From Cyanidioschyzon merolae (lineage: Eukaryota), in the NCBI GenBank assembly GCA_000091205.1, contig AP006497.2: DNA of 64,000 bases; one strand, 5' to 3'. How positions within the stretch are numbered: position 1 is the stretch's first letter; each line of letters opens with the position of its first letter. Below the pieces are notes generated by a model, which made no database searches, was not told the DNA's origin, and worked only from the letters and a program-made list of their open reading frames with translations. The position numbers were made by a program, and so were the translations under genes. Positions 1,696 to 39,341 of this stretch are shown piece by piece.

Positions 1696-2870
1696 CCCCA
1701 CCAGAAGAAACGCATTTTCCCACGGAAGCGGCAGCGAACGCCGTTCAACAGTCGAAAGTCGCCAGCAGTGTACAGTAGTTGCGAATGACCTGCCCTAGAC
1801 GAGACACGTCCGAATGACGTGCAGACGCCTCCCAGTATTTTTGGACCGGCCACCGACTACTGGTTCCATTTTTTTCTCATATAATCTAACCTTGAGATGT
1901 TGCCCTGCAAAAATTTCTCTTGTCATCTCTGGAGGCCTCTTGTCCATCACCGCACGTCTCCTGATATTGATAGTGGCATTAAAGTCTCGATTCACAAACT
2001 CCATGCGTTTCCTGCCATTGGTAGTTGTATTCATTAGTGCGAGTAGTCCGCGAATTTTCGCCTTAGTTTCCATTTGCACTTCCGCCAGCGCTTTGTACTT
2101 TTTTACACCCTCAAGGCTCGGCTGACACTGCTCCATCTTGACCTTCTGGAGCGTACACCACAGCTCGTGGCGTATGTTGGATGTTCGGAACTCATATATC
2201 GGTATTGTGACGAAACATCGTGCGCATTCCTTGTACGCTCATTGCGAGTTGCTGTAAACCGGAAACGAAATTCTCCTCGACAAGCCATAAAAGTGGTGTT
2301 GTGGCTTTCCGCCAGACACGGTGGCTGTTTTTGCCGTGTCCATGGTCCCGCAGGCGTGTCCCGGAGTGCGCTGACTCCATAAAAGCCGCGAGTTCGCGCT
2401 GCTGCCCTGGCATCGGGGTGCTGGCGGCTCCACAGCACAGATACCTCATGATGTGCGGGCGAAGCATGCTGCTTCAGCACCGTAAGAACGATGCGCTCTC
2501 ATGCGCGTTCCCCTATGATCCGAGATGTAATCCACAGAGTGATGCTGGCGGCTATGACCGAGCGTCTTGCATATAGAATGCAAATCTGGGAACTGCGGCC
2601 TAAGGCTCGGAGTTCCAAGTCACGAATGGTCCATATGCTCACGATCGGTACTCGAAGCGAGCGCGCTGGACATTATACACTGCTTTGCTGCACGAGAACA
2701 GTGCTATGCTCGGGGCCGGCTAGAGTACCTTACGAAAAGTCAGCAGGAACGTCGCTTTCAGGTACGGTGCGTGACACGGGCTAGGCGAGAGCGATCCGTT
2801 TGCGAATCATTTCGGAATGCGAATTCGATGTTCATGAGTGTCTTCCCGTAGTAATGCCTCTTTACTTCAG
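1696..2870 (-). pseudogene. TnpB/Fanzor-like nuclease relic, copy A (5'-truncated, C-terminal half best preserved)
   Basis: ORF 1795-2136(-) reads ...GRKRMEFVNRDFNATINIRRRAV... (RuvC-III DxNAAxNI; Asp codon 1984-1986). My translation upstream in the same frame gives AYKECARCFVTIPIYEFRTSNIRHELWCTLQKVKMEQCQ, preceded by an in-frame TGA and a +1 shift relative to copy B. Weaker nucleotide similarity to copy B continues to about 2600, including a degraded GxDxG region. The 3' non-coding tail at 1696-1794 matches the tails of copies B, C and D. Confidence 0.7.
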
Positions 2871-2901
2871 GTTCGAGGCGCGCCTGTTCGAGTTGGTTTA
2901 G

Positions 2902-3675
2902 CGCTTGCGTTCGAGCTTTTTGTCGATTCCATCGGGAAGCAGACCTGCTTTTTATTCTTCCTTGCACTCCGTGATTCAAGCCCATCACAGACGTGTTTTC
3001 TATCGTGAAACGTAATGATCGCTGCACTGGGCGAATCGCTGAAGCGTTCTGCACAATCACGTCGGAGCATATATCGTCGTTTTTCAGCAAGTCTTTCTCC
3101 CTCCGGGCAGGTCGTCGACTACGGGCATTCAGAAGTACGTGCATTTGTCGAAATAGAAAATCCATGCGAAAAGTATGGACATGAAAGTTAGGGATCCCGG
3201 AGGGTCGTCATTGCCAGGCGCCGGAAAAATGGATATATTGCTCTCCTCGTCGACCAGTGAGCGAAGAAGAGCAAGCGAAGATGATGACGAAGAAGAAGAG
3301 AATAGATAGGCGAGAAAAGATGGATGCCCGACGAGACGCTGGCGATTCTTTATTAGCACTGACGGCGCGAGTTCTAGCAATCCTGGCAATCGTGCGTTCA
3401 ACCGTCGACGATGCTCGCATGTAGCTCGTGAACCGAGACTTCACTGTCACCATCAATATCAGACGATGCGCGGTGCAGGAAACGATACCCGAGGAGCTAT
3501 GACGATCCAACTTCGTAGGGCATGCGCTCAGGCTCGACGCGTGCCTGGATACACTGAAGCTGCCAGCAGGTGGCTGGTCAGAAAAAATGGGAGGCTTCTG
3601 CACGCGGGCACCAGTTTAACCTCCATGGGCGCGAAATGCCTATCGTTTTACTGACTACAGACGTTCATTCTCGAG
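2902..3675 (+). mobile_element. Internally deleted (MITE-like) derivative of the Fanzor-like element; 5' module joined directly to the 3' end
   Basis: 2902-3190 aligns with 16058-16329, the 'U' 5' module of copy C. 3190-3400 aligns with the first ~170 bp of the nuclease gene (gggatccNgaggg..., cgacgagacgctggcga). At ~3425 the sequence jumps to the C-terminal end, gtgaaccgagacttcactgtcaccatcaatatcagacgatgcgcg (VNRDFTVTINIRRCA). This is followed by the conserved tail blocks cagcaggtggctggtc and gggaggcttctgcacg. Confidence 0.6.
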
Positions 3676-4541
3676 CTCGCTCGTACGGCCACCAGCAACT
3701 AGTATACTGTGTTAAGAAGCATGCACAGTGAAATTCCGCAAAAGCTGAGCAGTCACCTGCATGCTGTTCTGATCTGGTAGGCTCGTACGCCATTTGGAAC
3801 GTTGGAGTCGTTTGCTTGTGCCTCCTTCGCGAACGAGCGATGCGGCGTCCGGAACCTTGGCCAAAACGCGTTCCAATACATTATTTCGAAAAGCTGGGCG
3901 TGAGACGCGAGTCAGGACGAAACGGCAATGCGCGCTCAAAGTATGGAAGACTCGATAGAGTCGACCTATCGAAAACAGCTGAGAACCCGAGGATACCAGT
4001 CGAACTTCAACGGTCTTGGACGAAGTTCACAGCCTCAGCACTTGAAATGCCATCCAAATCGCATCAAAACTTGAATATTGTTATTCGGGAGCAAATCGCG
4101 TCTCCGCGCTGGCCTGCCAGGGTTACGCCTCCGATGCCGTTCAGGTAGCCTTCATTGGAACTGGTTGTCTCCCAATGAGCCGTCTCGCTCGGCGGACCGC
4201 TCCCGCAGGCAATGTGCGTTTCCATTCAAAGTCAATCACATGCATCAAGCGTTCCAGGCGCTGCTCATTCGCCTGCACGGGACACTCGCAGGGCAACACG
4301 CTCTGCAGGCACAAGACACTAGTACGATATGCGCGTCCTTCGCAGATCAGCTCCATAGATTGTGGAACCCAAACGACGCTCCACATTCACCCAAGGACGA
4401 GAGAGCGCCCGCCCCGCAGAGCGATGGGATCCGCACGCGGCTCCGGTGCGCAGCCGCTGCCACGCGTCGTTATCGGGAGGCCTCTTCCGACTGACGGCAT
4501 CAGGTCATCACACGCTCATACAATGCTCAATCTCCAACCGG

Positions 4542-6167
4542 CTACGGGGAAAAGCTCTGGAAGAAGGAAATCGAAAAACCCTCGTCAAACCGGTCGCCAT
4601 CGCCACGTCGCAGAATACGTGCCCAGTTGACTTCAAACCGACCGAGGCTCGTACAGCAGGCGAGTCCAAGACCCGCTGACATGCGCCAACTCTGGCGCCA
4701 CGCGACAGCGTCCGACCATTCCCGACAGTCACCTATTGCACAGAACGTGTGGAACTGTAAGCCGAGGGAGCGTGCCACTGCACTGGTAACGATCGGGACG
4801 CCTAGATGTAAACCTAGTTTGTAGTAGACATCTCCACCGATGCTGTCTCCATCGGCGCTGGGCCCTAGGCCCCGATTCCGGAAGCCTCGGAATGCATTCG
4901 CACTGCCGCCGACGAAAAATCGATCGCAGATCCTCGTCTGACGCAACGCATGCCGGGGGCCGGCACGGTGCTCGCTTTTCCGGTCTTTCATCGCAGCGAG
5001 CGCTTGGTGGAAGGGAATGATCATTCCCCCCTGGAAGCCAACTGAGAACACGATAGGAGGCATCAGACGCTCGGGTGGTGACGGGGCAGCGTCACCAGCT
5101 GCAAGTGAATCGTCCACATTGCGCACGAGTTCGCTGCCGTCGGCTCCCGTCAGTGGCACATTCCACTGCCACGAGAGCTCGCTTCGAATAAATCTCGTTG
5201 CGGGATCGCCACCGAGTCCCGCTAGTTCACAGTTCCACTGAGCATTCGTACCCTGACGAGGCGCCAGCGGATCGTCGCGACCATCCCGGGTCCAGGTGTA
5301 TTTGAATGAGCTCTTCACTGAGTGCCCAGCTTGTTCACGAACCCTGATGCTTGCGTGCGGTGCGACTTGCCCCAGCTCGCGCCAGCTGCACTCATAAGCG
5401 AAACGTCCGAACCGCGTCTGGAGGCCGGCTTCAAAGCTGCGCTGAAACTCACTATACGAACTTGTGTCCATGCGATTCAGCAGGGCGCTCTCGGCACTTG
5501 CCGTCGCCAATGCGTCCAGTAACCCCCAGGGATGTGGTTTTCGCCAACCGCAAACAAGATGATTCGTGGCTGTTTGTTTTGCAAATAGGTAGCGGTTCGG
5601 GTGCACCAGTGCAGCGAGGCTACTCAAACTCGAGAGCGCGAATCCGGACCCGCCGACGCCCGCACCAAGTTGGCAATGCAAAGCATCTCCCGTCCCAGTA
5701 AAGTTTATGAAGCCTCCATCAAGCTCGAGAGCGGTCTCGCCGGTGCGCGTATCGGTAGAGGTCCCAATACGGAGTGAAAAAGGTGGCGCCTCACGCACAG
5801 TAACGAGTGCATCGCAGGGCACAGACTCTGCAGTTGGCTCACCGTTCGCAGGGACCGCCGATTCATCGATGAGAATGTCCACTGCACGGAAACACTCGGT
5901 CAGACGGAGTCGCTCGGTTGCGAGTGACGCTCGTTCGAGGAGCTCCTCGAGTGTCAACGAGCGGCGGCTAGACTCAGGAGGCAACGAGTCTCGGTTCTGC
6001 TCCTCCGACAAAGATGCATCTAGGAGGCTCTGGACAAAGTCGATGCGAGTTCGTTCGACGCCGCGAATAATGACCCGCCGCAGACGAACTGTTTCACGCA
6101 AGATGTCGCGAACTGGTGCTTCAAGATTTTGCGCTGAGGCAGTAGCTTGCTCAGATCCGGAAACCAT
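4542..6167 (-). CDS. SAM50/Omp85-family (bacterial surface antigen D15) outer-membrane beta-barrel assembly protein
   Basis: ORF 4542-6224(-), start moved to the first ATG (complement of 6165-6167). There is a POTRA-like N-terminus, VRLRRVIIRGVERTRIDFV. The barrel motifs are VREQAGHSVKSSFKYTWTRDGRDDPLAPRQG, ELAGLGGDPATRFIRSE, FFVGGSANAFRGFRNRGLGP and GGDVYYKLGLHL. Confidence 0.8.
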   Translation of the reverse strand: MVSGSEQATASAQNLEAPVRDILRETVRLRRVIIRGVERTRIDFVQSLLDASLSEEQNRDSLPPESSRRSLTLEELLERASLATERLRLTECFRAVDILIDESAVPANGEPTAESVPCDALVTVREAPPFSLRIGTSTDTRTGETALELDGGFINFTGTGDALHCQLGAGVGGSGFALSSLSSLAALVHPNRYLFAKQTATNHLVCGWRKPHPWGLLDALATASAESALLNRMDTSSYSEFQRSFEAGLQTRFGRFAYECSWRELGQVAPHASIRVREQAGHSVKSSFKYTWTRDGRDDPLAPRQGTNAQWNCELAGLGGDPATRFIRSELSWQWNVPLTGADGSELVRNVDDSLAAGDAAPSPPERLMPPIVFSVGFQGGMIIPFHQALAAMKDRKSEHRAGPRHALRQTRICDRFFVGGSANAFRGFRNRGLGPSADGDSIGGDVYYKLGLHLGVPIVTSAVARSLGLQFHTFCAIGDCREWSDAVAWRQSWRMSAGLGLACCTSLGRFEVNWARILRRGDGDRFDEGFSISFFQSFSP

Positions 6168-6918
6168 CCGCGGGTGCGTACCAGTGCAGCGCTCCTTGAA
6201 GAAAGCTGCCGATTTCTCCACCACACACTGGAGACGTAGACCTCAGACAGTCGAGGTCGATCGCAGCTGCCGAGCCTTTGCAAAACCTGTCCACGGTGTA
6301 AGCAGACACGTCGTCCCCAAAAGTCTGCACCAGCGCAACGCCACATTGGTTCGGGCGAGCGCTTCCGCTGCCGAGGGCGATCCTGCGGGCCTGCCTGCAC
6401 AGCCGCTCGATGAGTGCATTGTCGCCCGTTCGGCGTTCTGGATCGACTGCGTTGAATGGGACTGCATCTGGCAGTGACGTCGGAGGTGTTATGGTGTCAT
6501 CTGGGTGTGCAACGATGCTCAAATGCGTTGCATGGGACTGCATCTGGCAATAACGATCGACCGCGTTGACAGGGACTGCATTTCGCACTAAAGTCGGAGG
6601 TGTCATCGTATCATCTGGGCCTCAAGTCGTTCGTGCAGTGTTGATGCCGGGTCGAAGAAAGGGACCGATTGCCCGTGCGCTTTTGTCCATGCGCACAGTC
6701 CCTGGAAGGCGGAGTGCGTTGATGATGGAGGTCCTTTTTGGATGCGTCCCCCAGATATCCCGCTGTTCAGACTCAAAAGGGTGACAGTCCTATTGAAAAG
6801 GTTCTCGTGCATCATGCCGCTCGCTAGTTTCGTCCCGGACAGCAAGGATAACCCCTAAAAGAGCTACAGACCACGGCGACGAGCTCGATGAACAAGAGTC
6901 TGCTCGTTCGGCGGCTGA

Positions 6919-6922
<4 letters not shown>

Positions 6923-6957
<35 letters not shown>

Positions 6958-6958
6958 C
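6923..6958. repeat. (GCA)12 microsatellite
   Basis: Twelve uninterrupted GCA units read directly, about 130 bp upstream of the eL41 ATG. Confidence 0.95.
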
Positions 6959-7085
6959 GTTGCGCTGTCACGATCGAATTCGTGACATCACCGCCGCGCT
7001 TCACGGACGGCACACATCGCGCACCATCTACGAGCACATCTGTTTTCGCGCTGTACGCTCTTGAAGAGCAAAAACCAGGTGGCAT

Positions 7086-7554: not shown

Positions 7555-8547
7555 TTAGTGCGTTTGCTGGATCTCCCGTTGAATCTCAGCAAGCGCCAGG
7601 CGCACGTCCCGCTCTGTTACCACCCTGTTTTCTCGTGCACACTCTTGGAAGAGGCTGTACAACCGCCTTTTGGCGGCGCCCCAGGCATATGCGTACTCCA
7701 GCTCCAGCACCCGCTTGCCCTGAATCGAAGGCGGAAACGGAGACATTTCCACGTCGACGGCACCATCCGCAGCCTGTTCCTCATCAAAAAGCCATTCCAG
7801 ATGCGCAGCGTTTCGTTGTGAGCTGCAGGCGTCACATGGACAGACTACCGCCTCCAGTTCCTCCACAGTCACAAATATCGGAGCCATTTGCTCCGACTGC
7901 GTCGACGTGTCGCTGTCAAGTACCGCTTGCGCAATGCAAAGCGGTTTCGACACGCTGCCCGCTGCCTTGGCAGCGGGCACCCATAGCGCCAAGGGGCTGC
8001 AGCTCCGCCGGCACGCAGTGCACACAAGCAGCCCGTCCGTGGAGCCCGTCGTCGCGTCCAGGCCACCGAGGCACTTGACGTGGAACCAGTCCTCACAACC
8101 AATACACTGGTGCATGGTGTCGTCTTTCTCGCCTTGATACTCGGCGTCACATACACAGAACCTGTTTCGAGCGTTGTGATGCTCTCGCAGCCACCACACC
8201 TGAGAGGTCGGCAACGGCGCAGCGGCAACGTCGCTTAGCGCACAGTGCGGAGGCGCACACTGGCATACGAGTCCGTGCTTGTTTCCCAGCGCAAACGTGT
8301 CGTGGTCTGCGTGGCAGGCATCCGCACACGCCTGGCATACGATGGACGGTAAACTGGGGCCCTCGGGCAGCGCTGCCCGCGTCGTGCACGTCCGACAGAC
8401 ACACACTGCTATTGCACGTTCTGCTTGAGAGCGCTCGCGAGCACACTGCCAGTTGTGCTCTGGACACGCAGCACTGACTAGGTCCTCCAAGGTCACCACA
8501 TCCTCTGAGTCTTCGACTGAACCGAGAGCGTGCTCACTAGACCCCAT
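7555..8547 (-). CDS. UBR-box plus PHD-type zinc-finger protein (UBR7-like)
   Basis: ORF 7555-8574(-) starts on TTG; the first ATG gives MGSSEHALG at 8547. A Cys/His-rich UBR-like block reads CVCRTCTTRAA...CQACADACHADHDTFALGNKHGLVCQC. A PHD-like block reads FCVCDAEYQGEKDDTMHQCIGCEDWFHVKCLG. Confidence 0.6.
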   Translation of the reverse strand: MGSSEHALGSVEDSEDVVTLEDLVSAACPEHNWQCARERSQAERAIAVCVCRTCTTRAALPEGPSLPSIVCQACADACHADHDTFALGNKHGLVCQCAPPHCALSDVAAAPLPTSQVWWLREHHNARNRFCVCDAEYQGEKDDTMHQCIGCEDWFHVKCLGGLDATTGSTDGLLVCTACRRSCSPLALWVPAAKAAGSVSKPLCIAQAVLDSDTSTQSEQMAPIFVTVEELEAVVCPCDACSSQRNAAHLEWLFDEEQAADGAVDVEMSPFPPSIQGKRVLELEYAYAWGAAKRRLYSLFQECARENRVVTERDVRLALAEIQREIQQTH

Positions 8548-8575
8548 GCTTCGGGCGCCGTGGCAAAAGTGCAAA

Positions 8576-10919
8576 CCCCTGGAAACAAACGTCTTTCAAA
8601 AGAAAAACGATGCAGCCTGCGGTATACAGAAATGGCGCGCAGCGCGCCCGAGTCAGAACGTCTCCAGCTGACGTGCAGTCGCCTCCCCGTCTTTTTGGAC
8701 CGGCAACCTACTACTGATTCCAACTTTTTTTCATATAATTCCACTTTGGGAGGTTTTCCAACAACGTTCTCTCTTGTCAACTCTGGAGGTCTTTTCTCGA
8801 GCACCGCACATCTCCTTATATTGATGGCGGCGTTAAAGTCTCGGTTCGCAAACTCCATACGTTTCTTGCCATCATTGGTTGTACTTACTGATGCAAGCAA
8901 TCCTCGAACTTTCGCTCTCCTTTCCATTTGCTCTTCCGTCAGCGCTCCGTACTTTTTCGTATCCTCAGGGCTCCGCTAGCACTTTTCCATCTCCACCCTC
9001 TGAAGTGTACACCCCAGTTCATGGTGTGTATACGATGTTCGAAACTCATCCATTGGTATCGTAACGAAACGCCTCGCGCACTCCTTGTACGTTCTTGTCG
9101 TTGGAGCTGGAGTAGTCCCTTTTTGGGTCTTCCAGCGCCCTGCTCCGTACCCTGCTACGAGCCTCTGACTTTTATCCTCCTTCAGGGCACTCAACTGATT
9201 GAAAAAACTCTCGAACGCACGCTGCTTACCACACTATAGATTCATTCGCAAACGAGCCCACCGGGGCTTGGTATACTCCTCCCACAATGCATTCCAATGA
9301 GCAACGCGAACTTCCATGAATTTCCGAAAAGCTTTAAAGTCCGCTCCTCGGCTCGTCACCTCGCTCACAGCTTCCAGGTGCTCGTTCATTCCTGCATTCC
9401 ATTTCTCGATTTTCTTCCTCGTATTCATGATTCCCGATTCTCGATGGTATCTCGCTCTCGAGAACCTCAAAAGACGCATATCTTTCTGATGCAAGGTACC
9501 GTCAGTACCATCTTCCCCACGCTTCGGTGCTGCGATGGTTATGATACTTGTGTTTCCAGCGTCCGCGCCAACGACAAAGTCGTTCTCGTGCATCTTCTGT
9601 GTCGCAGGACCCGCCTTCTTCTCATCTTCATGGTTCTCCGAGGGCGGAACGGGCCGATCCACACTCAACCGCCGATAGTGTATGCACCTGGCTACTCCAT
9701 CGGTTTCGATCATCCCAGTGAATACCTTTTGTCTGCTTACTTTCAGACGTTTGAAATCGAAGATACTCTTCCGGGGCATCTCCCGGTTTTCGTCGGTGAA
9801 CTCCTCCCTGCGAACATCGAACTCCGGACAGATCTCCTTCAAGATGCCATGAAGGATTCTCGAGTCCATAGTCACAAAATGTGACTTGATATTGCAAATT
9901 GGAACCATGTTGAAGCGCTTCCCCATTAGGGCCGACTTCCGCCTCTCCCACTCTTTATTTGTCTCCTCACTCAGCTTCCTCTCTGCCTGGCGTTCGAGTT
10001 CTCGGTCCAGAACCACAGAATAGCGCAGGACGAGGCGATAGTATCTTTCCTTAACTTTTTTTCAACTCTGATATCTTTTCTGTTGGATTCGCCAGCTCCA
10101 AGACTGCACGGTGCTCTTGTATTACGGCACGGATGACGGAGTCCTCATTCATGCTCTGGTTTGACGCCTTCTTGTCGACGAATTCGATCTCATCTTCATG
10201 CTTACGATCGTTCGTGGTGCCATTGAGGTCCGCCTATACTCCATTGCGAGAGATGCGCGGGTAGCGTGCAAACACGGCACGTATCATGAAACGTTCGAGG
10301 TTCATTGTCAAATGGTTCTTCAGATTCGTGAGGTATTTCATGGCCCCATAGTCCTAAATATCCCGGTCACCCCTATACCGAGTACCCTCGAAGCGGAATT
10401 CCGGGAAGGTTTCGTGGAGGACATGCACTGCTCATTTTCCCTCCGCGCTTTCGCTGTACCAAGCATCAGGTGACGAATAAACGTCGTGTCGAAGAATTCT
10501 TCCGGAATCTCGACTGTTTCCATGTGCGTCACGTCGCGATACATCTCCTTCACCAAATGCATCAGTCCTATAGAGTCCATACGAACCCTCGTGAAGTACG
10601 AATCAACATAATTTCTGATGGCCTCTCGCAGATTTTGCTTGTGCGGATCCTGAATATGGCCTAGATGGCATGATTTCTTTACAATCTTGAAGTAGGGTCG
10701 TCTTTCGAGTTGCATTTGGCGCCGGGCCCCCCCTTGTTTTGCGTCATCGTCGTGTCTTGTTTCTCTTCGGTCGGTATTCTTTTTCGCTTTTTCCGCTAGC
10801 CGGCGACGCTGCCCCTCCAGGATCCTCCACTTCCTTTTCCATAACTTTCCTCTTTTATTTTTTTGTAACGCACTTTGAACGCTTCTGCTATAAACCGCGA
10901 AAAAAACACGAGAATACAC
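8576..10919 (-). pseudogene. TnpB/Fanzor-like nuclease relic, copy B (full length, disrupted)
   Basis: Four collinear ORF pieces are present.
- 10338-10919: basic N-terminus KRGKLWKRKWR.
- 9234-10016: ...[18 protein letters not shown], RuvC-I GxDxG.
- 8976-9194: ...RRFVTIPMDEFRTSYTHHE.
- 8493-8927: ...KKRMEFANRDFNAAINIRRC, with the RuvC-III Asp codon at 8838-8840.
An in-frame TAG at 8976-8978 is CAG (Gln) in copies A, C and D. Further stops and shifts lie between 10016 and 10340. The tail ends ...cgtttgtttccagggg at 8576. Confidence 0.75.
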
Positions 10920-11650
10920 TTGTTTGAGGTTTGAGACACAAATGAACGGAAAAACTGTACTTTGCTACAACTTTAACGCAAGTACAACTTTTATATTAGA
11001 GCAGCACGCTATTGATCAGGATCGCGTTTCCCTTCAGCTGCGGGATGCGCGTCGTGACTCGAAAACTAACAGATCTCCCTGGTGCGCAAATCGATAGCGC
11101 TATGTAGAACAAAGAACAGAGACTCACGACTAGCGAGCAACGATACAGCAATTTCTCTCCCGTTCTACGATAAACGTTGAAAACGGGGAAAAGGTTCCCA
11201 TATTCTGAAGAGTCCTCCCTCTAGGCGAAAAGTCCCGCGAGCCGGACGAGTCTCCCGGACTCGTGCTTCGTGCTCCACCCAGTAGCGGGCGCTGTGGCGA
11301 GACCTGAGCAGTTCGTCCGCAACGCGGTTCATTCTGGGACTAGATGCGGGATGCTGTGTTTGGTCGTCGCCCTGATCGCAGTAGACTCCTAATATATCGG
11401 TTCGCGCTTTCGCAGGCAGTAGTTCTGTCTGTTTAGCCTACAGGCTCCCAGAATTATTCTGGACTCCAACGCTGTATCAGGTAAAGCGTTCCTCAATCCG
11501 TCGCCCTCAGTGGTATGGCAACGCTGTTCTATCTCCATGATGCATCCGTCCCAGTGGTATAGGCGCTAAGGCGGGTGCCCAAAGCAGGCACTCGGTCGCA
11601 CTACAGAACGCACAAAACGATCTGTACATCCGAAAGGAAGTATAAGGAAC
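10920..11650 (-). repeat. 'V' upstream module attached to copy B (homologous to 36290-37062 of copy D)
   Basis: The reverse complement of 10920-11650 aligns by eye with 36290-37062. Matching pairs include tttttcgcggtttaYAScagaagcgttcaaa, gagccggacgagtNtc, gacctgagcagNtcgtccgca, and caggcactcgg...gtaYatccga. Confidence 0.6.
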
Positions 11651-11897
11651 GGAGCATGGAGGTAGAGTGCATCATGATGGACACTTTTTCGATCAGCTAT
11701 ACCCATCCATCTCGCTATCTGGAATCCAAGTACAATGTAAACGTTTTGTCATTGGAGAGAAATCAGCGGCAACAGCAAATGCAGCGGATTTTGTTCCATG
11801 TGAAAACTTCTCACACAGGCGAGCGTGCCGCGACTCTGTGTGCTTGCTACCTGCGCGCGGTGAAACTTTCGTCGTTCCACGCTTTACGTCCGAGTTT

Positions 11898-12185
11898 CAT
11901 AACCCATACTTCTTCTCGGATGTACTGGCGTTTCAGACGTACTATCGGGCGCCGAGTGCCTGCCCGTGAACATCCGCCTCAATAGCGCTTGTAGCGCCGG
12001 TGCTGTCGTAGCACAGAAACAGAACGGCGTTGCCGTACCGCAGACGGCGTCTGCTCGAGGCATGCTTCACCTGACGTAGAACTGGGTCTCGTTGTCAGGT
12101 TGTGCTCGGACAGCCTGCGGATGCAAAACTTGCTTTCGCTGCACAACACATTGGAGAAACTTGGCTGTTACGATGAATCCTGGGA
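11898..12185 (+). repeat. Second, inverted partial copy of the V module (homologous to 22052-22338)
   Basis: 11915-12170 aligns with 22069-22323 at a constant offset of ~10154. Shared strings include ctcggatNtNctgg, gaacggcgttgccgta, gacgtagaaNNgggtctcg and ctggagaaacttggctgtta. Its first ~165 bp form an inverted repeat with 11479-11641. Confidence 0.6.
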
Positions 12186-15403: not shown

Positions 15404-16057
15404 GTAGCATATACATTCATTTCTGAACAGTGCAAGGAAGACTGTATTCCTCGTTTAGGACAGTCATACCACCGTACTCAGATGGTTGGCAAACACTGTA
15501 AGAAAAATGTAGATGCACTCCGTGCCAGAGATCGATATTCATTGAGGTCGCTTGCAGTCGATCTTAGAAAACGATCCGTTGATCACCATTTTCGGAAAGC
15601 AACAGCGACGATAATAGCCGCCACAGGCGTCACCGTTTCTCAACAGCTTATTCTTATGATCCCGAAAACATTGGGATACAATCTCAAAAAAAGTCATCGT
15701 TCAAGCAAAGGCATCTTCCATCCAAATCGCAACGACAGAGTCCCTGGAACGTCACGATCGATAGGAACCACTGGATCGTCAGTTTGTTTGTTCAGTTGAT
15801 GAAAATTGCTTCAGAAGGCACGCTCGGAGCGTCAATGGGTATTCGAGGTGAAGGGCGCCCGTTGTACGTTCGATCGAGCTCGAAGAGAACGACGAAATCA
15901 TCATCTATTATAGCTTTAGAAGATTTATTTGGCGGCCTCAGTTTCACTTGTAGAAAAGACACATGCAACAGCACCAACCAATTTGTCCAAGCATTGAAGA
16001 CTTTTACCCGACGTCTGGCGACGTCCTTCTATTGGGCAACGTGGCATATCACCATAT

Positions 16058-18612
16058 CGCTTGCGTTCGAGCTTTTTGCCGATTCTATCGGGGTAGGGGT
16101 GATTTTTGTTCGTCTGTGCGCTCCGTGGTTCAAGCGCATTGTAGGAGTGTTTTCTATCGTGAAACGTGATGATCGCTCCCCCGGGCGAAACGCTGAGCGT
16201 TCATCACTCGGTAACACATCGGGGTACATGCCATTTATCTTGCGAAAGCCACGCTCCCTCCGAGAAAGCCCTCATCTAAGGGCAAAAAACGTGCGGTCGT
16301 TTTGACGAAATAAAACTCCAAAACAAAGCTATGCACGTGCAAGTCGGGGATCCTGAAGGGCCCTTGCCGCCGGCTGGCAGAAAAAAACGAAAAATTCTGC
16401 CAATGGAATAGGAACAAAACAGAACGAAGAAGCAAAAGGGCGAGGCCCGACGTCAAAAGCTGCGCGAAAGACGACTATGCGACGAGACGCTGGCGAAAGC
16501 CTGTCTTGGTAACCATATCAAGGATTCGGACAAGCAAACATGCAACAAGTCATCCGAGACCGTGTCGAGTCGCACTCCATGAGTATTGTAAAGGATTCTT
16601 CAGGACTAATGCCTTTGACGAAGGAGATGAATCGCGGCGTGACGGGCATCAAAACAGTCGAGGTTCCGGGAGAATTTTTCAACACCATCGTTATGCATCA
16701 CCTGATGCTTGGCACAGGGGAAACGTCGAGGAGAAAGGAGCGAATGCATGCCCTCCACAAAATTACCCCGAATACCCTTTTCATCGGTAATCGATACCGG
16801 CGTGACTCGGATATTTACACGTACGGGGCGAAAAAGTACCTCACGAACCTAAAGAACCATATGAACATGAACCTCACACGTTTCATGATACGTTCCGTCT
16901 TCGCGCTGGACCCGTGCCTCTTTCGCAAAGCGATAGACGGGTTACCATCAATGGCATCTCGAACGATAGTAAGAACGAACAGGAGATCGAACTCGTCGAC
17001 AAGAAGACCTCGCACAGGAGCATGAATGAGGCTTCTGTCATCCGCGCGGCTATTCAAGAGCACCGTGCACTCTTGGGGCTCGTTGACCCAGCAGAACAGG
17101 TATCAGAGATGAAAAAGATGGAAAAAGAAAGATGTTACCCACACTTCCTGCGCTATTTCGTGTATTTGGACCAAGAACTCGAACGCAAGGCTGGGATGGA
17201 GCAGGGTGTGCGGAAAAATGCAGAGTCGGTAGAACGGAAGGCTGCGCTTGCGGGTACGCGCTTCGAAGTCGTTCGGTTATGCGAGATCAAGTCGCACTTT
17301 GTGACAATCGACTCCAGAGTCCTTTACGGAATACTGAAGGAGATAAGTTCGGGGCTCGATGTACGCAACAAGGAGTTCACCGGTGAAAATCGGGACACGT
17401 ACTGGACGCATGTCTTCGACGTCAAGCGTCTCAATACGAGCCAGAAAAGGTATTCAGAGGTGTCATCGAAACTAAATGAGTAGCCATGTGTGCACACGAT
17501 CGGCGCTTGAAGGCAGATCGTCATATCGTGCCTTCGGCTTCGCCCGTGACGAAGCATGAAGATGTGAAGCAGGCGGATCCCGCGACGCAGGAGGTTCAGG
17601 ATACTGGCTTTGGCGGCGGCGCGGACCCTGGGATGACGAATATCATAACGATCGCAGCACCGAAGCGTGCGGGAGATGGTGCTGATGGTAACCTGCGTCA
17701 GATAGAAATGCGTCTCTTGAGGTTCTCGAGACCGAGATACTACCGAGAATCCGGTTCAATGAATGCGAGGAAGAAAATCGAGACATGGAATGCAGGAGTC
17801 AAGGATCAGCTGGAAGCTATGAGCGAGGTGACGATCCGACATGCGGACTTTCAAGATCTGCCAGAGTTCATGGACACTCAAGCTGCTCATGTCGAGGAGC
17901 TGCGGAAAGAGTATCGAAAACAAAGGTGCGCTCGTCAGCGTTTGAATCTGTACAGAGAGAACCAGCGTGCATACGCCAACGATTTCAATCCGTTGAGCGC
18001 CTTGAAGGAGGACGAGAGTCAGAGGCTGGTAGAAGCGTATGGGGCAGCGCGCTAGCTGGCCCGAAAAGGGACTACGCCAGCTCCAACGACAAGAACACTC
18101 AAAGAGCGTACACGGCGTTTTGTTACGATACCAATAGGTGAGTTCCGAACATCGTATACACACCATGAAGTGAGGTGCGTACTTCAGAGGGTCGAGATGG
18201 AAACGTGCCAGCGGAGCCAAGAGGATATAAAAAAGTACAGACCGCTGACGGAGGAGCAAATGGGAAGGAGGGCAAAAGTTCGCGGACTCCTTGCATTCGT
18301 GAGTACAACCAATGATGGCAAGAAACGCATGGAGTTTGTGAACCGAGACTTTAACGCCGCAATCAACATCAGAAGATGTGCGCAGCTGGAGAAAAGACCT
18401 CCAGAGTTGACACGAGAGAGAATTTTGTCAGACGACCTCTCAAGGTCGAAGTATACGAGAAAAAGTTGAAACCAGTAGCAGGTGGCCGGTCGAGAAAGTC
18501 GGGAAGGCGTCTGTACGTCGGCGTATAGGCATCCGATCTGCGGCGCGCCGCTCGCCACTCCTGTACCCCTAGCGACAGCGTTTTTCTTGTGAAAGGCGTT
18601 TGTTTCCAGGGG
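16058..18612 (+). mobile_element. Fanzor/TnpB-like element copy C ('U' 5' module + disrupted nuclease gene + conserved 3' tail)
   Basis: The U module 16058-16329 matches 2902-3190. The gene pieces are 16540-17025, 16914-17483, 17486-18055 (...GGGADPGMTNIITIAAP; Asp codon 17624-17626) and 18170-18469 (...MEFVNRDFNAAINIRRCA; Asp codon 18347-18349).
Lesions:
- frame changes near 16535 and 16925;
- TGG to TAG at 18053-18055, where copy B keeps Trp;
- a +2 bp 'ga' insertion near 18417, which breaks the C-terminal ...TRENFVRRPLKVEVYEKKLKPVAGGRS.
The tail ends ...gaaaggcgtttgtttccagggg at 18612. Confidence 0.75.
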
Positions 18613-18652
18613 TGCCCAGGGGGTCGCTTTAGCCTAGCTTTTGGTCTCGAAA

Positions 18653-21683: not shown

Positions 21684-22051
21684 CGCTGCGCGCCTCCGCG
21701 CGTAACCGCTATGTTTTTCGTGGAATACGACGTCTGCGATGAACCTGAATATCTCGAGTACGTGATTGTTGTCGGCAACGAGAAAACAGGCGACAATTCC
21801 TTTTCAGATGGTTTGATGCTTCACGCCTGCCAGCACAGTCTCTCGATTCGAACATAGGATTCGACTCAACGACTTTTGGGCTACAGTGCTCACTCGACGG
21901 TAAGCTCGCCACGACATCCGATTCTTTTCATGGACAAAACGTTTCCATCGGCCAGCGTTCTCCGATTACGCGCATTTTTCTTTTCTTACTTTTTTTGTGT
22001 TTTTTTTTCAGTGCGCGGTGAGGTATCCACCAAATCCCCTACTTCCATGTT

Positions 22052-22338
22052 ACATTACCTGCACTTCGTCTCGGATATTCTGGTCGTTTCATACGTCCTA
22101 TCGTGTGTGCCTAGTACCTGCCGAAAGCGACAGCAATAGCGCCTACAGCGCCAGTGCGGTCGCTGCACGGAGACAGAGCGGCGTTGCCGTAACACAAAGG
22201 GCGGCGGCTCGAGGCGTGGCTCACCCGACGTAGAATCGGGTCTCGTCGTCAGTTTGTGCTCGGAGAGTCTGCGGATGCAGGCTTGTCTTCGCAGCACGAC
22301 ACGCTGGAGAAACTTGGCTGTTAGGATATATCCTGGGA
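22052..22338 (+). repeat. Solo fragment of the V module (matches 11898-12185)
   Basis: See the 11898-12185 feature. The core ctcggatattctggtcgtttcatacgtcctatcgtgtgtgcctagtacctg also matches 36294-36342 in copy D. Weaker similarity may extend left to ~21930. Confidence 0.6.
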
Positions 22339-26596: not shown

Positions 26597-26689
26597 CACC
26601 CCGTCACATCCGCACACTGTCGTCGACCGCCGACCGCGCCTAGAGCCGTCCTCCGAATGACGCGGGAGTTGCGACTCGGACACCACGTG

Positions 26690-35429: not shown

Positions 35430-37062
35430 ACCATGATTCCAGTTCACATGCACAAGCTTCTATGCTCCTCCGTTCCTTGCATATAGCATGCTTGGATCAT
35501 GCATTGTTTACGTTTTTGATCTCTCCGTTTCAACGCAACTCGCGCCGCTGAATCGACGACGAAAAGAGCTCGACGAAACCCCGTGAAGACCGCGTCACAA
35601 GATCGTACCACAAATTCACTAAACTTTTCATTCCAAATAATAAGTTCAATTCAAAAGATAAATCCTCCTCTAATTGCGGTCATCAACGAAGCTGCATTCG
35701 ACAACAGCGGCGGCATGATGCCTGTCACAGGAGGTGCTCCCCGAGGCTTCCGCTTTCTCTGTGAGGAAAATGGTAATGGACCCGGCCATGGGTCATCACA
35801 GGGATCGCTACTGATAGAGCGCGCGTCGACATATAAAGCGCGAAGCGAGCGTAGACGGATCGAAAGTTTTGGAGTTGATCTCCAGCCTGGGTTGCCGTCT
35901 TGGTGCCTGATTCATCATGGACGGTAACATCGCGTCCCAAACAGCCTCGATCTTGGAAAGCAGCGTGCGCTTGCACGACCAGCGGACAGGGTACTCACCG
36001 AGGATCTCGCGCAGAGGAAACCCGTAATCGTCGGGTACAGCACAACGCGCTGCATCAAAGGGAGGCATCTTGCAGCGCCCTGCGTACCGGTCAAGCGGTT
36101 GTACTGAGCGGTGAAGCGAGCGCTGACGAGCGATAAGCGGCGGTTCCTCAGCAGCAGCAGCAGCGATACTGACTTTTTCGATGACAAAACGTTTACATGG
36201 GCTATGGATCTCAGATTGCGGGATGGATATCGGTAATTGAACATGCGCCCATCATGAAGCATCTACATGAAAGATCCATCACCTGTACTTGCTCTCGGAT
36301 ATACTGGTCGTTTCGTGCGTTCTAGCGTGTGCCGAGTGCCTGTTTGGAGCACCCGCCATGCGCTTAGACCGGTGGGGCTGATGCATCACAGCGGCAAAAC
36401 AGCTTTGCCCTGCCAGCGAGGGCGTCGACTCGAGGTGTGATTCACTATTCACAGGATCGGAATTGGTGATCATTTTGGGAGCCTGCAAGCTGCGCAGACA
36501 GACGTACTTTATGCAGCGGCGCCAAGCGATATTCGAGAAGTCCACGACGACCAGGGCGACGCCTAGACGCAGGCTATGCGCTCCTAGTCCCAGAATAAAC
36601 TGCGATGCGGACGAGCTGCTCAGGTCTCACGAAACCACCTGCAACTGGGGCGAGCACGAAGCGCGAGCCCGAGACACTCGTCCGGCTCTCAGGACCTTCC
36701 GCCTAGAGGATAAACTTTAGACAGTACGGAAACCTCTCCCGCTTTTAACTTTATATCGTTGCTAGTTAGGAGTGAGCCTCCGTTCTTTGTTCCGTATTGC
36801 GCGCTCGACACGCCCACCTCCATACTTGGCTGGCTGGCATGAAACACGACGTGCATCTCGCCGATGAAGAGAAACGCGATCGCGATCATTCGTTGACTTG
36901 GTGCTCTAACAGACAAGTTGCGTTTGCGCAAAAGTCCTAGAAAAGTATAGTTTTCATTTCAATCGCGTTTCAACCCTCAGTTTAGTGTACGCAGGTGATT
37001 TTTCGCGGTTTACACCAGAAGCGTTCAAAATGGGTTCATGTTCAAGAAAATATAGGAAAGTG
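35430..37062 (+). repeat. 'V' upstream module attached to copy D (longest version in the window)
   Basis: 35430-36340 aligns with 63110-64000 in the same orientation and with 59950-60670 in the opposite orientation. 36290-37062 aligns with the reverse complement of 10920-11650. It contains an ORF-like block on the minus strand (35808-36068) that is conserved in the other copies. Confidence 0.6.
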
Positions 37063-39341
37063 ATGCACGTGCAAGTCGGGGATCCTGAAGGGCCCTTGCC
37101 GCCGGCTGGCGGAAAAAAACGAAAAACTTTGCCAATGGAATAGGAACAAAACAGAACGAAGAAGCAAAAGGGCGAGGCCCGACGTCAAAAGCTGCGCGAA
37201 AGACGACTATGCGACGAGACGCTGGCGAAAGCCTGTCTTGGTAACCATATCAAGGATTCGGACGAGCAAACATGCAACAAGTCATCCGAGACCGTGTCGA
37301 GTCGTACTCCATGAGTATTGTAAAGGATTCTTCAGGACTAATGCACTTGACGAAGGAGATGAATCGCGGCGTGACGGGCATCAAAACAGTCGAGGTTCCG
37401 GGAGAATTTTTCAACATCATCGTTATGCATCACCTGATGCTCGGCACAGGGGAAACGTCGAGGAGAAAGGAGCGAATGCATGCCCTCCACAAAATTACCC
37501 CGAATACCCTTTTCATCGGTACTCGATACCGGCGTGACTCGGATATTTACACGTACGGGGCGAAAAAGTACCTCACGAACCTAAAGAACCATATGAACAT
37601 GAACCTCACACGTTTCATGATACGTTCCGTCTTTGCGCTGGACCCGTGCCTCTTTCGCAAAGCGATAGACGGGTCACCATCAATGGCATCTCGAACGATA
37701 GTAAGAACGAACAGGAGATCGAACTCGTCGACAAGAAGACCTCGCACAGGAGCATGAATGAGGCTTCTGTCATCCGCGCGGCTATTCAAGAGCACCGTGC
37801 ACTCTTGGGGCTCGTTGACCCAGCAGAACAGGTATCAGAGGTGGAAAAAGATGGAAAAAGAAAGATGTTACCCACACGTCCTGCGCTATTTCGTGTATTT
37901 GGACCAAGAACTCGAACGCAAGGCTGGGATGGAGCAGGGTGTGGGGAAAAATGCAGAGTCGGTAGAACGGAAGGCTGCGCTTGCGGGTACGCGCTTCGAA
38001 GTCGTTCGGTTATGCGAGATCAAGTCGCACTTTGTGACAATCGACTCCAGAGTCCTTTACGGAATACTGAAGGAGATAAGTTCGGGGCTCGATGTACGCA
38101 ACAAGGAGTTCACCGGTGAAAATCGGGACACGTACTGGACGCATGTCTTCGACGGCAAGCGTCTCAATACGAGCCAGAAAAGGTATTCAGAGGTGTCATC
38201 GAAACTGAATGAGTAGCCATGTGTGTACACGATCGGCGCTTGAAGGCAGATCGTCATATCGTGCCTTCGGCTTCGCCCGTGACGAAGCATGAAGATGAGA
38301 AGCAGGCGGATCCCGCGACGCAGGAGGTTCAGGATACTGGCTTTGGCGGCGGCGCGGACCCTGCGATAACGAAGATCATAACGATCGCAGCACCGAAGCG
38401 TGCGGGAGATGGTGCTGATGGTAACCTGCGTCAGATAGACATGCGTCTCTTGAGGTTCTCGAGACCGAGATACTACCGAGAATCCGGTACAATGAATGCG
38501 AGGAAGAAAATCGAGACATGGAATGCAGGAGTCAAGGATCAGCTGGAAGCTATGAGCAAGGTGACGATCCGACATGCGGACTTTCAAGATCTGCCAGAGT
38601 TCATGGACACTCAAGCTGCTCATGTCGAGGAGCTGCGGAAAGAGTATCGAAAACAAAGGTGCGCTCGTCAGCGTTTGAATCTGTACAGAGAGAACCAGCG
38701 TGCATACGCCAACGATTTCAATCCGTTGAGCGCCTTGAAGGAGGACGAGCGTCAGAGGCTGGTAGAAGCGTATGGGGCAGGGCGCTAGCTGGCCCGAAAA
38801 GGGACTACGCCAGCTCCAACGACAAGAACACTCAAAGAGTGTACACGGCGTTTTGTTACGATACCAATAGGTGAGTTCCGAACATCGTATACACACCATG
38901 AAGTGAGGTGCGTACTTCAGAGGGTCGAGATGGAAACGTGCCAGCGGAGCCAAGAGGATATAAAAAAGTACAGACCGCTGACGGAGGAGCAAATGGGAAG
39001 GAGGGCAAAAGTTCGCGGACTCCTTGCATTCGTGAGTACAACCAGTGATGGCAAGAAACGCATGGAGTTTGTGAACCGAGACTTTAACGCCGCAATCAAC
39101 ATCAGAAGATGTGCGCAGCTGGAGAAAAGACCTCCAGAGTTGACACGAGAGAGAATTTTGTCAGACGACCTCTCAAGGTCGAAGTATACAAGAAAAAGTT
39201 GAAACCAGTAGCAGGTGGCCGGTCCGAAGAAAACTGGGACGCGTCTGCACCTCAGTTCGGGACGTCTTGTCAAGGGCGCTGTCGTCGCCACGTCTGTATA
39301 CTGGCGGCGGCGACGTTTGTTTTTCGAGAAGCGTTCGCTGG
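37063..39341 (+). pseudogene. TnpB/Fanzor-like nuclease relic, copy D (near-identical core to copy C)
   Basis: The pieces are 37272-37757, 37646-38119/37758-38216, 38219-38788 (GGGADPAITKIITIAAP) and 38903-39202 (MEFVNRDFNAAINIRRCA). It shares with copy C the TAG at 38786-38788 and the +2 bp shift near 39150. It also has an in-frame TAG after MHVQVGDPEGPLPPAGGKKRKTLPME. The 3' tail 39225-39341 is diverged from C and closer to A. Confidence 0.75.

What the first reader, a model, noticed from the sequence alone, without database searches (positions are those of the whole stretch)
1696..39341. A multi-copy eukaryotic TnpB/Fanzor-like nuclease family in an otherwise compact gene-dense region
Five loci encode collinear pieces of one ~730-aa protein: 1696-2870(-), 2902-3675(+), 8576-10919(-), 16058-18612(+) and 37063-39341(+).
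- The protein has the ordered motif series of TnpB-type RuvC nucleases.
- RuvC-I is GxDxG ([15 protein letters not shown] / GGGADPGMTNIITIA).
- A conserved Glu sits in IP(M/I)(D/G/Y)EFRTS.
- RuvC-III is NRDFNAAINIRR.
- A basic N-terminal patch (GKKRK, KRGKLWKRKWR) looks like an NLS.
- The reconstructed size and the NLS-like N-terminus fit the eukaryotic Fanzor branch better than ~400-aa bacterial TnpB.
- The stretch where the canonical RuvC-II Glu is expected (LVAGYGAGRW) has no Glu. This would fit the rearranged-glutamate arrangement described for some Fanzors.
- Five insertions in 40 kb is a high density for a genome this compact.
Basis: partly seen in the sequence, partly recalled or inferred. 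Interest (0 to 1): 0.85.

Follow-up and report, generated by a model that had tools for sequence, protein, structure and literature searches.

The report
Decayed Fanzor1 transposon copies, red alga

Summary
A profile of 66 diverse relatives hits only the three solved Fanzor1 proteins in the whole PDB (E = 1.5e-23, 2.2e-15, 5e-9). An AlphaFold model (pLDDT 81) also matches only Fanzor1 structures (E = 2e-16, TM 0.72). The family's invariant D, E and D align with the SpuFz1 catalytic residues D383, E541 and D606. The canonical RuvC-II position is an invariant Gly, which is the rearranged-glutamate arrangement typical of Fanzors.

All five window copies are pseudogenes. Three are near full length with 2-4 frameshifts and 2-5 in-frame stops each. 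Two are short fragments. One quoted "NLS" is an out-of-frame artefact.

The host is a cyanidiophycean red alga. The unit is about 3.15 kb: an 880-bp non-coding leader, one intronless ORF of about 735 codons, and a 70-nt tail with a terminal hairpin. It has no TIRs and no transposase. This matches the CMe-1A element reported by Bao & Jurka (2013).

Three points appear to be unreported. The clade lacks the C4 zinc finger. Pfam files it as DUF8286. Elements sit just upstream of co-oriented host genes (32 vs 5 sites, p = 7e-6).

The parts
8577..11765 (-). Copy A: near-complete element (leader, ORF remnant and 3' tail), a pseudogene
   Evidence: blastn against copy E over 8588-11752 at 73% identity. 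Left-end motif ATGACAAAACGTTTACAT at 11735-11752. tblastn and HMM cover the whole protein, with frame changes -2/-3/-2/-3 and stops at 10356, 10236, 9236 and 8978.
10843..11752 (-). Copy A non-coding 5' leader (~880-910 bp)
   Evidence: Aligns with the E leader and with leaders of many metagenome copies at 67-73% identity. No ORF is conserved in frame or strand.
8649..10842 (-). Copy A Fanzor1 ORF remnant. ATG at 10842. RuvC-I GADAG 9555-9569, catalytic Glu DEFRTS 9033-9050, RuvC-III NRDFNAAINI 8817-8846. The natural stop position, ~8649-8651, is mutated.
8590..8609 (-). Copy A terminal hairpin CGUUUUUC-UUUU-GAAAGACG, 9-13 nt before the element's 3' end
16055..18611 (+). Copy D: alternative ~275-bp leader (16055-16330), ORF remnant (ATG 16331, to ~18541) and tail with hairpin 18579-18598; a pseudogene
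   Evidence: The alternative leader is shared with F2 (2899-3204, 71% identity) and with L054, L069 and L022. Frames +2/+1/+3/+2, stops at 17477 and 18053. Hairpin.
36170..39346 (+). Copy E: complete-length element with leader 36181-37062, ORF remnant 37063-~39274 and tail with hairpin ~39312-39335; a pseudogene
   Evidence: Stops at 38210 and 38786 sit at the same positions as in D. The interior (37057-39253) is 98% identical to D (16325-18519), while leader and tail differ.
1726..2244 (-). Fragment F1: the C-terminal ~155 codons (YEFRTS 2176-2193, NRDFNATINI 1975-1992) plus the 3' tail; 5'-truncated
   Evidence: tblastn 1768-2238 and HMM 1870-2244. Tail and 3' arm GAACGGCG at 1739-1746. One in-frame stop at 1797.
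2899..3668 (+). Fragment F2: internally deleted copy with alternative leader, start-codon region (to 3204), C-terminal remnant 3362-3586 and a degenerate tail; head-to-head with F1
11885..12185 (+). Solo repeat sharing ~170-200 bp with the leader core, inverted next to copy A's left end
   Evidence: blastn: 78% identity to 22040-22338 and 71% to 36277-36445. Alignment.
22040..22338 (+). Second solo copy of the leader-related repeat

Best explanation
The five loci are fossil copies (three near full length, two fragments) of a non-TIR mobile element that carries one gene, a Fanzor1-type RNA-guided endonuclease. The host is a cyanidiophycean red alga.

The intact unit is about 3.15 kb. It has an ~880-bp non-coding leader that begins at a pyrimidine run followed by ATGACAAAACGTTTACAT. 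Next comes one intronless ORF of about 735 codons. Its product has a basic, NLS-like N-terminus, a helical REC/WED half, and a split RuvC domain. The catalytic residues are the Asp of GxDPG, the relocated Glu of DEFRTS and the Asp of NRDxNAAxN. The NUC region has lost the C4 zinc finger. The unit ends with a ~70-nt non-coding tail carrying a stable terminal hairpin 9-13 nt from the 3' end. It has no TIRs, no detectable TSD and no transposase.

By homology with SpuFz1, PpFz1 and GtFz1, an intact copy would bind an omega-RNA made from the 3' end of the element. The guide of that RNA would be the flanking host sequence, and the complex would cut matching DNA next to a TAM. This step is inferred.

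None of the copies in this window can do that, because all carry frameshifts and stops. D and E share two nonsense mutations and are 98% identical only across the ORF interior. That pattern is best explained by ectopic gene conversion between two already dead copies 20 kb apart.

The element matches the description of CMe-1A and its leader-only derivative TE-N2_CMe in Cyanidioschyzon merolae.
For: Homology to Fanzor1:
- The profile of alignment A4 hits only Fanzor1 chains in the PDB, E = 1.5e-23 to 5e-9.
- The AF2 model has pLDDT 81.3. Its Foldseek top 7 hits are all Fanzor1, E = 2e-16 to 4e-13, target-normalised TM 0.72, and the next hits are Cas12 at E >= 0.02.

Catalytic residues:
- Among only 15 invariant columns in 66 sequences are D484, G623, E656 and R724-D725-N727-A729-N731.
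- These align to SpuFz1 D383, E541 and D606.
- The rearranged Glu is a Fanzor hallmark.

Pseudogene state.

Element anatomy:
- Boundaries from copy-to-copy alignments.
- Natural stop.
- No conserved ORF in the leader.
- No TIRs.
- Leader-only elements.
- Terminal hairpin in about 44 of 47 copies, mean MFE -11.3 against -5.6 +/- 3.4 kcal/mol for controls.

Host: long intronless eukaryotic ORFs including plastid-type DUF1995 and Omp85. The M16 peptidase is 70% identical to the Cyanidiococcus protein and 51% to the Cyanidium protein.

Prior description: PMC3627910.

Family size: 1,508 clusters at 50% identity and 365 related stretches in JGI metagenomes.
Against: - Curated profiles (Pfam OrfB/Cas12f1-like_TNB, NCBIfam) do not reach significance on any member. 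The best is E = 0.0023, below the cut-off. The precomputed Pfam label is DUF8286.
- The C4 zinc finger, part of the 2013 definition of TnpB/Fanzor, is absent.
- The omega-RNA is not demonstrated. RNAalifold finds almost no consensus structure. The pair count shows 80% pairing, but this equals the column shuffles, so there is no covariation signal.
- No fully intact copy with its start codon was recovered. The best, P0001, lacks the N-terminal Met region and ends at a lineage-specific CAA>TAA change.
- Identity with CMe-1A rests on matching descriptions, not on a sequence comparison.
Confidence: 0.9

Rival explanations
1. The copies are retained because they have been co-opted. Each decayed element now supplies the promoter, 5' UTR or read-through transcript for the host gene immediately downstream. 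Alternatively, the element targets gene 5' ends in a strand-specific way. This is compatible with the main explanation. It concerns why the copies are where they are.
For: - In the window, the 3' ends of A, D, E and F1 are followed by a co-oriented long ORF whose first ATG lies 15-47 nt away. These are PHD, GLTP and DUF1995 proteins, plus one ORF that runs off the window.
- Over 45 de-duplicated sites, 32 are co-oriented, 5 opposite and 8 have none (binomial p = 7e-6).
- The same procedure on 5' flanks gives 2 co-oriented, 6 divergent and 5 none, so the method itself is not biased toward '+'.
- In L039 and L040 one open frame runs from the Fanzor C-terminus into the next gene.
Against: - The sites come from a few related metagenomes, and some may be orthologous rather than independent.
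- Start codons of the host genes are not verified.
- No transcription data are available.
- F2 is followed by a convergent gene (Omp85, 4542-6224(-)).
- No conserved target motif lies beyond the boundary.
- In a compact genome, purifying selection alone could filter insertions into this pattern.
Confidence: 0.3
2. The loci are functional, intron-containing or recoded Fanzor genes. On this reading the apparent frameshifts and stops are introns, programmed frameshifts or assembly errors.
For: Motif residues D, E and D are still present in A, D and E. Fanzor genes in other eukaryotes do carry introns (PMC10530073).
Against: - Adjacent tblastn segments overlap or abut with no intervening sequence: 10428/10425, 10061/10057, 16537/16513, 17450/17444 and 38183/38177.
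- In-frame stops replace conserved Y, W, Q and G residues.
- Different copies carry different lesions.
- Host genes in the same window have long clean ORFs, so assembly quality and the genetic code are fine.
- Nearly all of the 80 related loci are broken in a similar way.
Confidence: 0.03
3. The family is unrelated to TnpB/Fanzor (a 'DUF8286' protein), and the D...E...RD motifs are chance resemblances.
For: There are no significant hits to curated TnpB/Cas12f profiles. Pfam files it as a DUF. The zinc finger is absent.
Against: The profile hits in the PDB are exclusive to Fanzor1 and extend over both the REC/WED and RuvC halves. The structure search, which does not use the profile hits, gives the same three proteins. 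The invariant residues coincide with the experimentally defined active site.
Confidence: 0.01
4. D and E are 98% identical because a dead copy was recently mobilised in trans or duplicated segmentally, not because of gene conversion.
For: They share nonsense mutations (17477 = 38210, 18053 = 38786) and show 98% identity over 2.2 kb, against about 75% between other copies.
Against: The high-identity tract starts at the ATG and stops about 90 nt before the 3' end. The two copies have unrelated leaders (the alternative type against the standard type) and diverged tails, and their flanks are unrelated. Transposition or segmental duplication would copy the element ends too.
Confidence: 0.15

Closest known systems
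CMe-1A Fanzor1 element, and TE-N2_CMe, of Cyanidioschyzon merolae (Bao & Jurka 2013, Mob DNA 4:12; PMC3627910)
   Same: - The host is in the same class (Cyanidiophyceae).
- The element is about 3 kb and encodes only a Fanzor1 protein.
- It has no TIRs and its TSD cannot be determined.
- It is an old family with copies about 70-80% alike, most of them decayed.
- The 5' ~570-635 bp also exists as a separate short repeat.
   Different: - The host is a different, unnamed species. Its housekeeping M16 peptidase is only 70% identical to that of Cyanidiococcus.
- No direct sequence comparison with the Repbase consensus was possible.
- The 2013 paper does not mention a second leader type, the terminal hairpin, or the position just upstream of co-oriented genes.
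Structurally and biochemically characterised Fanzor1 nucleases: SpuFz1 (8GKH, 9CEU-9CEZ), PpFz1 (9CF0-9CF3) and GtFz1 (9CER-9CET)
   Same: - The overall fold matches (TM 0.72 to SpuFz1).
- The REC/WED plus split-RuvC architecture is shared.
- The catalytic D, E and D sit in the same motifs (DPx, DE[YF]xTS, NRDxxxxxN).
- The canonical RuvC-II Glu is replaced.
- The N-terminal extension is basic.
   Different: - Sequence identity is only 12-15%.
- The C4 zinc finger of the NUC domain is missing across this clade. CxxC becomes (K/R)(I/V)(H/Y)(H/Y), and the second pair is reduced to 'RGLLWC' or 'RGLLALV'.
- Spu-1 elements have 30-nt inverted repeats, and these elements have none.
- Activity and omega-RNA are untested.
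Bacterial TnpB of IS200/IS605 (e.g. ISDra2)
   Same: [quoted passage not shown]
   Different: - TnpB is about 400 aa, against about 735 aa here.
- Most TnpBs keep the canonical RuvC-II Glu.
- TnpB has a C4 zinc finger.
- TnpB is partnered with TnpA and found in prokaryotes.
- No TnpB chain appears among the significant PDB hits.

Membership tests
Fanzor1 | Significant sequence or structure similarity to established Fanzor1 proteins, better than to TnpB or Cas12 | tested here: met
   hmmsearch of A4 against the PDB finds only PpFz1 (1.5e-23), SpuFz1 (2.2e-15) and GtFz1 (5e-9). The Foldseek top 7 hits are all Fanzor1, and Cas12 starts at E >= 0.02.
Fanzor1 | RuvC-I Asp and RuvC-III Asp ((N/D)RDxNAAxN) conserved | tested here: met
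   D484 and D725 are invariant in 66 diverse members. They align to SpuFz1 D383 and D606. Both are present in window copies A, D and E.
Fanzor1 | Canonical RuvC-II Glu replaced by an inert residue (Gly/Pro), with an alternative conserved Glu tens of residues downstream | tested here: met
   G623 is invariant in 66 of 66. E656 is invariant, lies 33 residues downstream, and aligns to the catalytic E541 of SpuFz1. The criterion comes from PMC10530073.
Fanzor1 | C4 zinc finger (OrfB_Zn_ribbon / TNB) between the [TS][TS] motif and RD | tested here: not met
   64 of 66 members have no CxxC in that interval, and most have 0-2 Cys in total. The window subfamily reads THHELGC...RGLLALVSTT. PF07282 scores stay below its cut-off. 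The clade is therefore a zinc-finger-less variant within Fanzor1 by homology.
Fanzor1 | Encoded in a eukaryotic (or eukaryotic-virus) genome | tested here: met
   The neighbours are kinesin, WD40, GLTP, PHD and NIF genes. The closest named relatives of a host protein are Cyanidiococcus and Cyanidium.
Fanzor1 | N-terminal nuclear localisation signal | tested here: inconclusive
A basic stretch GGKKRK...KKQKGEARRQKLRERR in E/D, and similar stretches in P0035 and P0037, are present. No NLS predictor or localisation test was run.
Fanzor1 | Omega-RNA encoded at the 3' end of the element, with its guide in the flanking DNA | tested here: inconclusive
   The 3' ~250 nt is conserved. A terminal hairpin lies 9-13 nt from the end in about 44 of 47 copies. 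No covariation signal was found, there is no Rfam match, and no expression data exist.
Fanzor1 | RNA-guided dsDNA cleavage next to a TAM | not testable with these tools
   This needs biochemistry. In addition, all window copies are pseudogenes.
CMe-1A element family (C. merolae) | About 3 kb, a single Fanzor1 ORF, no TIRs, TSD not determinable, many diverged copies | tested here: met
   The unit is ~3.15 kb (36170-39346; 8577-11765). No inverted termini were found. Copy-to-copy identity is 70-78%. There are 365 related stretches.
CMe-1A element family (C. merolae) | The 5' ~635 bp also occurs as an independent short element (TE-N2_CMe) | tested here: met
   Leader-only copies of ~565 bp start at the same left end in L059, L058, L030, L016 and L015.
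CMe-1A element family (C. merolae) | Nucleotide or protein similarity to the Repbase CMe-1A consensus | not testable with these tools
   Neither Repbase nor the C. merolae genome is among the searchable collections.
Bacterial TnpB (IS200/IS605, IS607) | A ~400-aa protein with the canonical RuvC-II Glu, a TnpA partner and a prokaryotic host | tested here: not met
   The protein is ~735 aa, has Gly at the canonical position, has no adjacent transposase ORF, and sits in a eukaryotic host.

The most novel reading that the evidence does not exclude
Elements of this Fanzor1 family are not scattered at random. Their 3' (guide-proximal) end lies within a few tens of nucleotides of the start codon of a co-oriented host gene, often in a divergent-promoter region. 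This would mean either strand-specific targeting of gene 5' ends by a TIR-less, transposase-less element, or long-term co-option of the element's 3' end as the promoter/5' UTR of host genes in a very compact genome. In addition, the whole clade (more than 1,500 sequence clusters, filed in Pfam as DUF8286) would be a Fanzor1 lineage that works without the C4 zinc finger.
Probability: 0.35. Interest if true: 0.55.

Novelty: new member of a known kind. Interest (0 to 1): 0.3.

Why it matters
The finding confirms that a reader working from raw sequence can recognise a highly diverged Fanzor that curated profile libraries miss. It adds little new biology, because the element type has been on record for C. 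merolae since 2013 and Fanzor function since 2023.

Three by-products are useful:
1. DUF8286 can be linked to Fanzor1.
2. This large clade lacks the zinc finger that was considered part of the family signature. That matters for models of how the NUC domain holds the omega-RNA and for engineering small editors.
3. The position bias next to gene starts gives a testable handle on how these transposase-less elements choose, or survive at, their sites.

Tried and rejected
- Direct Pfam and NCBIfam scans of the window copies and close homologs gave no hits.
- A profile of the close subfamily found nothing relevant in the PDB. The diverse alignment was needed.
- A second word-indexed search with the diverse alignment returned almost only the same close subfamily.
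- The Rfam gathering scan and tRNA scan of the window found nothing.
- An inverted-repeat search around each copy gave no terminal repeats, only chance pairs and the inverted leader fragment near copy A.
- RNAalifold on 47 tails gave only a 4-bp helix.
- My own loose helix scan produced many chance stacks and was discarded.
- An explicit four-helix model gave 80% pairing but no excess over column shuffles, so covariation is not claimed.
- No fetched locus is orthologous to the window, so an empty-site search failed and exact ends and TSD remain undefined.
- The leader has no ORF conserved in frame or strand, so the idea of a hidden transposase or second gene was dropped.
- Helitron-like ends (5'-TC...CTRR-3') were considered because of the subterminal 3' hairpin. 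The ends read ...GTTTGTT...GTTGATGGTG and similar, not CTRR.
- Introns as the cause of the frame changes were rejected.

Full report
**Observation.** Self-comparison of the window shows one repeat family:
- Copy A, 8575-11752(-).
- Copy D, 16055-18613(+).
- Copy E, 36181-39335(+).
- Two fragments, F1 (about 1730-2244(-)) and F2 (2899-~3668(+)).
- Two short leader-related repeats at 11885-12185 and 22040-22338.

A, D and E are collinear with a 752-aa homolog over its whole length. F1 matches only the last ~155 residues. F2 keeps an alternative leader, the start-codon region and a ~60-75-residue C-terminal remnant.

All copies are disabled:
- A has at least three frameshifts and four in-frame stops.
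- D has at least three frameshifts and two stops.
- E has at least two frameshifts and at least four stops.
- The fragments also carry stops.

Neighbouring tblastn segments overlap or abut, so the frame changes are indels and not introns.

**What the protein is.** Pfam and NCBIfam give no hit on the window copies or on close homologs. The precomputed Pfam label of the homologs is PF26935, DUF8286. A profile of the close subfamily finds nothing in the PDB.

An exhaustive HMMER search shows the family is large. It has 1,508 clusters at 50% identity with E <= 0.001, many of them 600-700 aa. An alignment of 66 diverse full-length members (25-39% identical to P0001) has only 15 invariant columns. 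Among them are:
- D484 and G486 (GxDPG).
- G623 (the 'AYG' strand).
- E656 (DEFRTS).
- R724, D725, N727, A729 and N731 (NRDxNAAxN).

The profile of this alignment hits exactly three distinct sequences among 177,635 PDB sequences, all Fanzor1: Parasitella PpFz1 at E = 1.5e-23, Spizellomyces SpuFz1 at 2.2e-15 and Guillardia GtFz1 at 5e-9.

An AlphaFold2 model of P0001 built on that alignment is confident (pLDDT 81.3, pTM 0.79). Its only low-confidence stretch is a tandem-repeat insertion. Foldseek against the PDB returns the same three Fanzor1 proteins as the top seven hits (E = 2e-16 to 4e-13, target-normalised TM up to 0.72). There is then a gap of about eleven orders of magnitude to the Cas12 proteins.

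The published SpuFz1 active site is D383/N385, E541 and D606 (PMC10432273). Counting through the HMM alignment (MBP-fusion offset 394) places these residues on DPN, DEYKTS and NRDM. They are therefore aligned with D484, E656 and D725 of this family.

The canonical RuvC-II position is an invariant Gly, and the catalytic Glu lies 33 residues downstream. This is the rearranged site described for Fanzors in general (PMC10530073).

One defining feature fails. The C4 zinc finger of the TnpB/Fanzor signature (PMC3627910) is absent. 64 of 66 members have no CxxC between the Glu and the RD motif. The first pair is replaced by (K/R)(I/V)(H/Y)(H/Y). The second is reduced to 'RGLLWC', or 'RGLLALV' in the window's subfamily. 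This probably explains why the zinc-ribbon Pfam model does not reach its threshold.

**Host.** The window is full of long uninterrupted eukaryotic ORFs: kinesin, WD40, GLTP, PHD, NIF phosphatase and M16 peptidase, plus plastid-type DUF1995 and Omp85. The M16 peptidase is 99% identical to a JGI metagenome protein, 70% to Cyanidiococcus yangmingshanensis and 51% to Cyanidium caldarium. The host is therefore an unnamed cyanidiophycean red alga. All close Fanzor relatives come from a handful of JGI metagenome samples.

**Anatomy of the element.** Eighty related loci were fetched, out of 365 related stretches. Nearly all are as decayed as the window copies. Only L001 and L003 keep a near-full ORF.

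- **Left end.** Copy-to-copy alignments place it at a semi-conserved pyrimidine run followed by (G)ATGACAAAACGTTTACAT. This is window 36181 and 11735-11752(-).
- **Leader.** An ~880-bp leader follows. It is as conserved as the coding region but has no ORF conserved in frame or strand. A minority of copies (D, F2, L054) carry an unrelated ~275-bp leader instead. Leader-only elements of ~565 bp exist.
- **ORF.** It starts at 37063, 16331 or 10842(-). In the largest group of copies it ends at ...RRLHVSWRRFV*.
- **Tail.** About 70 nt of non-coding sequence follows. Homology between copies is lost 9-13 nt after a terminal hairpin, and no conserved motif lies beyond it.

There are no terminal inverted repeats and no second gene.

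The hairpin is present in about 44 of 47 non-redundant copies and has two sequence variants, CGUCGUUCGA-CUU-UCGAACGGCG and CGUUUUUC-UUUU-GAAAGGCG. Its mean MFE is -11.3 kcal/mol, against -5.6 +/- 3.4 for other windows of the same elements. Position and stability fit the scaffold end of an omega-RNA. The evidence stops there, however. RNAalifold finds almost no consensus. An explicit four-helix model is 80% paired, but no more so than column shuffles. Rfam has no match. The omega-RNA is therefore inferred, not shown.

**Comparison with what is known.** Bao & Jurka (2013) reported about 150 copies of a ~3-kb Fanzor1 element, CMe-1A, in Cyanidioschyzon merolae. Copies are about 80% identical to the consensus. 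The element has no TIRs and no determinable TSDs. Its 5' 635 bp also forms a separate element, TE-N2_CMe. Every one of those descriptors is met here. I therefore file the window copies as new members of that known element type in a related species. I could not compare sequences directly.

D and E are 98% identical only from the ATG to about 90 nt before the 3' end, and they share two nonsense mutations. Their leaders, tails and flanks are unrelated. Ectopic gene conversion between dead copies explains this better than transposition or segmental duplication.

**An unreported pattern.** In the window, the 3' ends of A, D, E and F1 are each followed by a co-oriented long ORF whose first ATG is 15-47 nt away. 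After collapsing the fetched loci to 45 distinct sites, 32 have a co-oriented ORF of at least 250 aa starting just downstream, 5 have an opposite one and 8 have none (binomial p = 7e-6). The ATG is commonly 10-150 nt from the element end. The same procedure on 13 distinct 5' flanks gives 2 co-oriented, 6 divergent and 5 none. The method is therefore not biased, and the elements seem to lie in gene-upstream regions.

This could reflect strand-specific targeting of gene 5' ends. It could also reflect survival only of insertions whose read-through or 3'-end promoter activity keeps the downstream gene expressed. There are caveats. The samples are related, host start codons are unverified, and F2 is an exception.

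**Verdict.** The Fanzor1 interpretation is supported by sequence-profile and structure evidence that agree. The copies are fossils, and the element type is already published. Interest is modest. The zinc-finger loss across a large clade, the DUF8286 label and the gene-proximal, co-oriented placement are worth a follow-up.

Noticed in passing
window 8577, 18611, 39346 and 1726 (element 3' ends) with downstream ORFs 7555-8574(-), 18641-20743(+), 39215-40345(+); loci L001-L081: The 3' end of the element lies 15-47 nt (window) or typically 10-150 nt (loci) upstream of the first ATG of a co-oriented host gene. Over 45 distinct sites, 32 are co-oriented, 5 opposite and 8 have none (p = 7e-6). In L039 and L040 one open frame runs from the Fanzor C-terminus into the next gene.
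   Followed up: partly
family-wide (alignment A4); window 8847-9032(-), 18155-18340(+): This Fanzor1 clade (1,508 clusters at 50% identity) lacks the C4 zinc finger between the catalytic Glu and RuvC-III. Pfam files the family as DUF8286 (PF26935) with no link to TnpB/Fanzor.
   Followed up: partly
window 16325-18519 vs 37057-39253: Two dead copies 20 kb apart are 98% identical across the ORF interior only. They share nonsense mutations but have unrelated leaders and diverged tails. This looks like ectopic gene conversion.
   Followed up: partly
window 16055-16330 and 2899-3204; L054:3534-3850, L069:8555-8896, L022:183-591: A second, unrelated ~275-bp leader type precedes the Fanzor start codon in a minority of copies, so the 5' region of the element is modular.
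   Followed up: partly
window 60135-60470 vs 63269-63605 (inverted), 60051-60351 and 63340-63523 vs L050 and L004; 35651-36043 vs L001 and L036; 46224-46874 and 47350-47475 vs L017 and L024: Other low-identity (65-74%) repeats are shared between the window and the flanks of fetched loci. They are presumably further repeat families of the same genome.
   Followed up: no
window 60964-61257: Three tandem copies of a 98-bp unit at 99% identity.
   Followed up: no
P0001 residues ~388-469 (L001:6001-8259); P0003, P0012: A variable number of ~24-residue tandem repeats (...KHEE.KEA.PATQ.V.DND.VV.A...) is inserted just before the RuvC-I motif in some copies. The region is disordered in the model (pLDDT below 50).
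   Followed up: no
window 6921-6957 and 47774-47818: The same short simple-sequence repeat occurs at two places.
   Followed up: no
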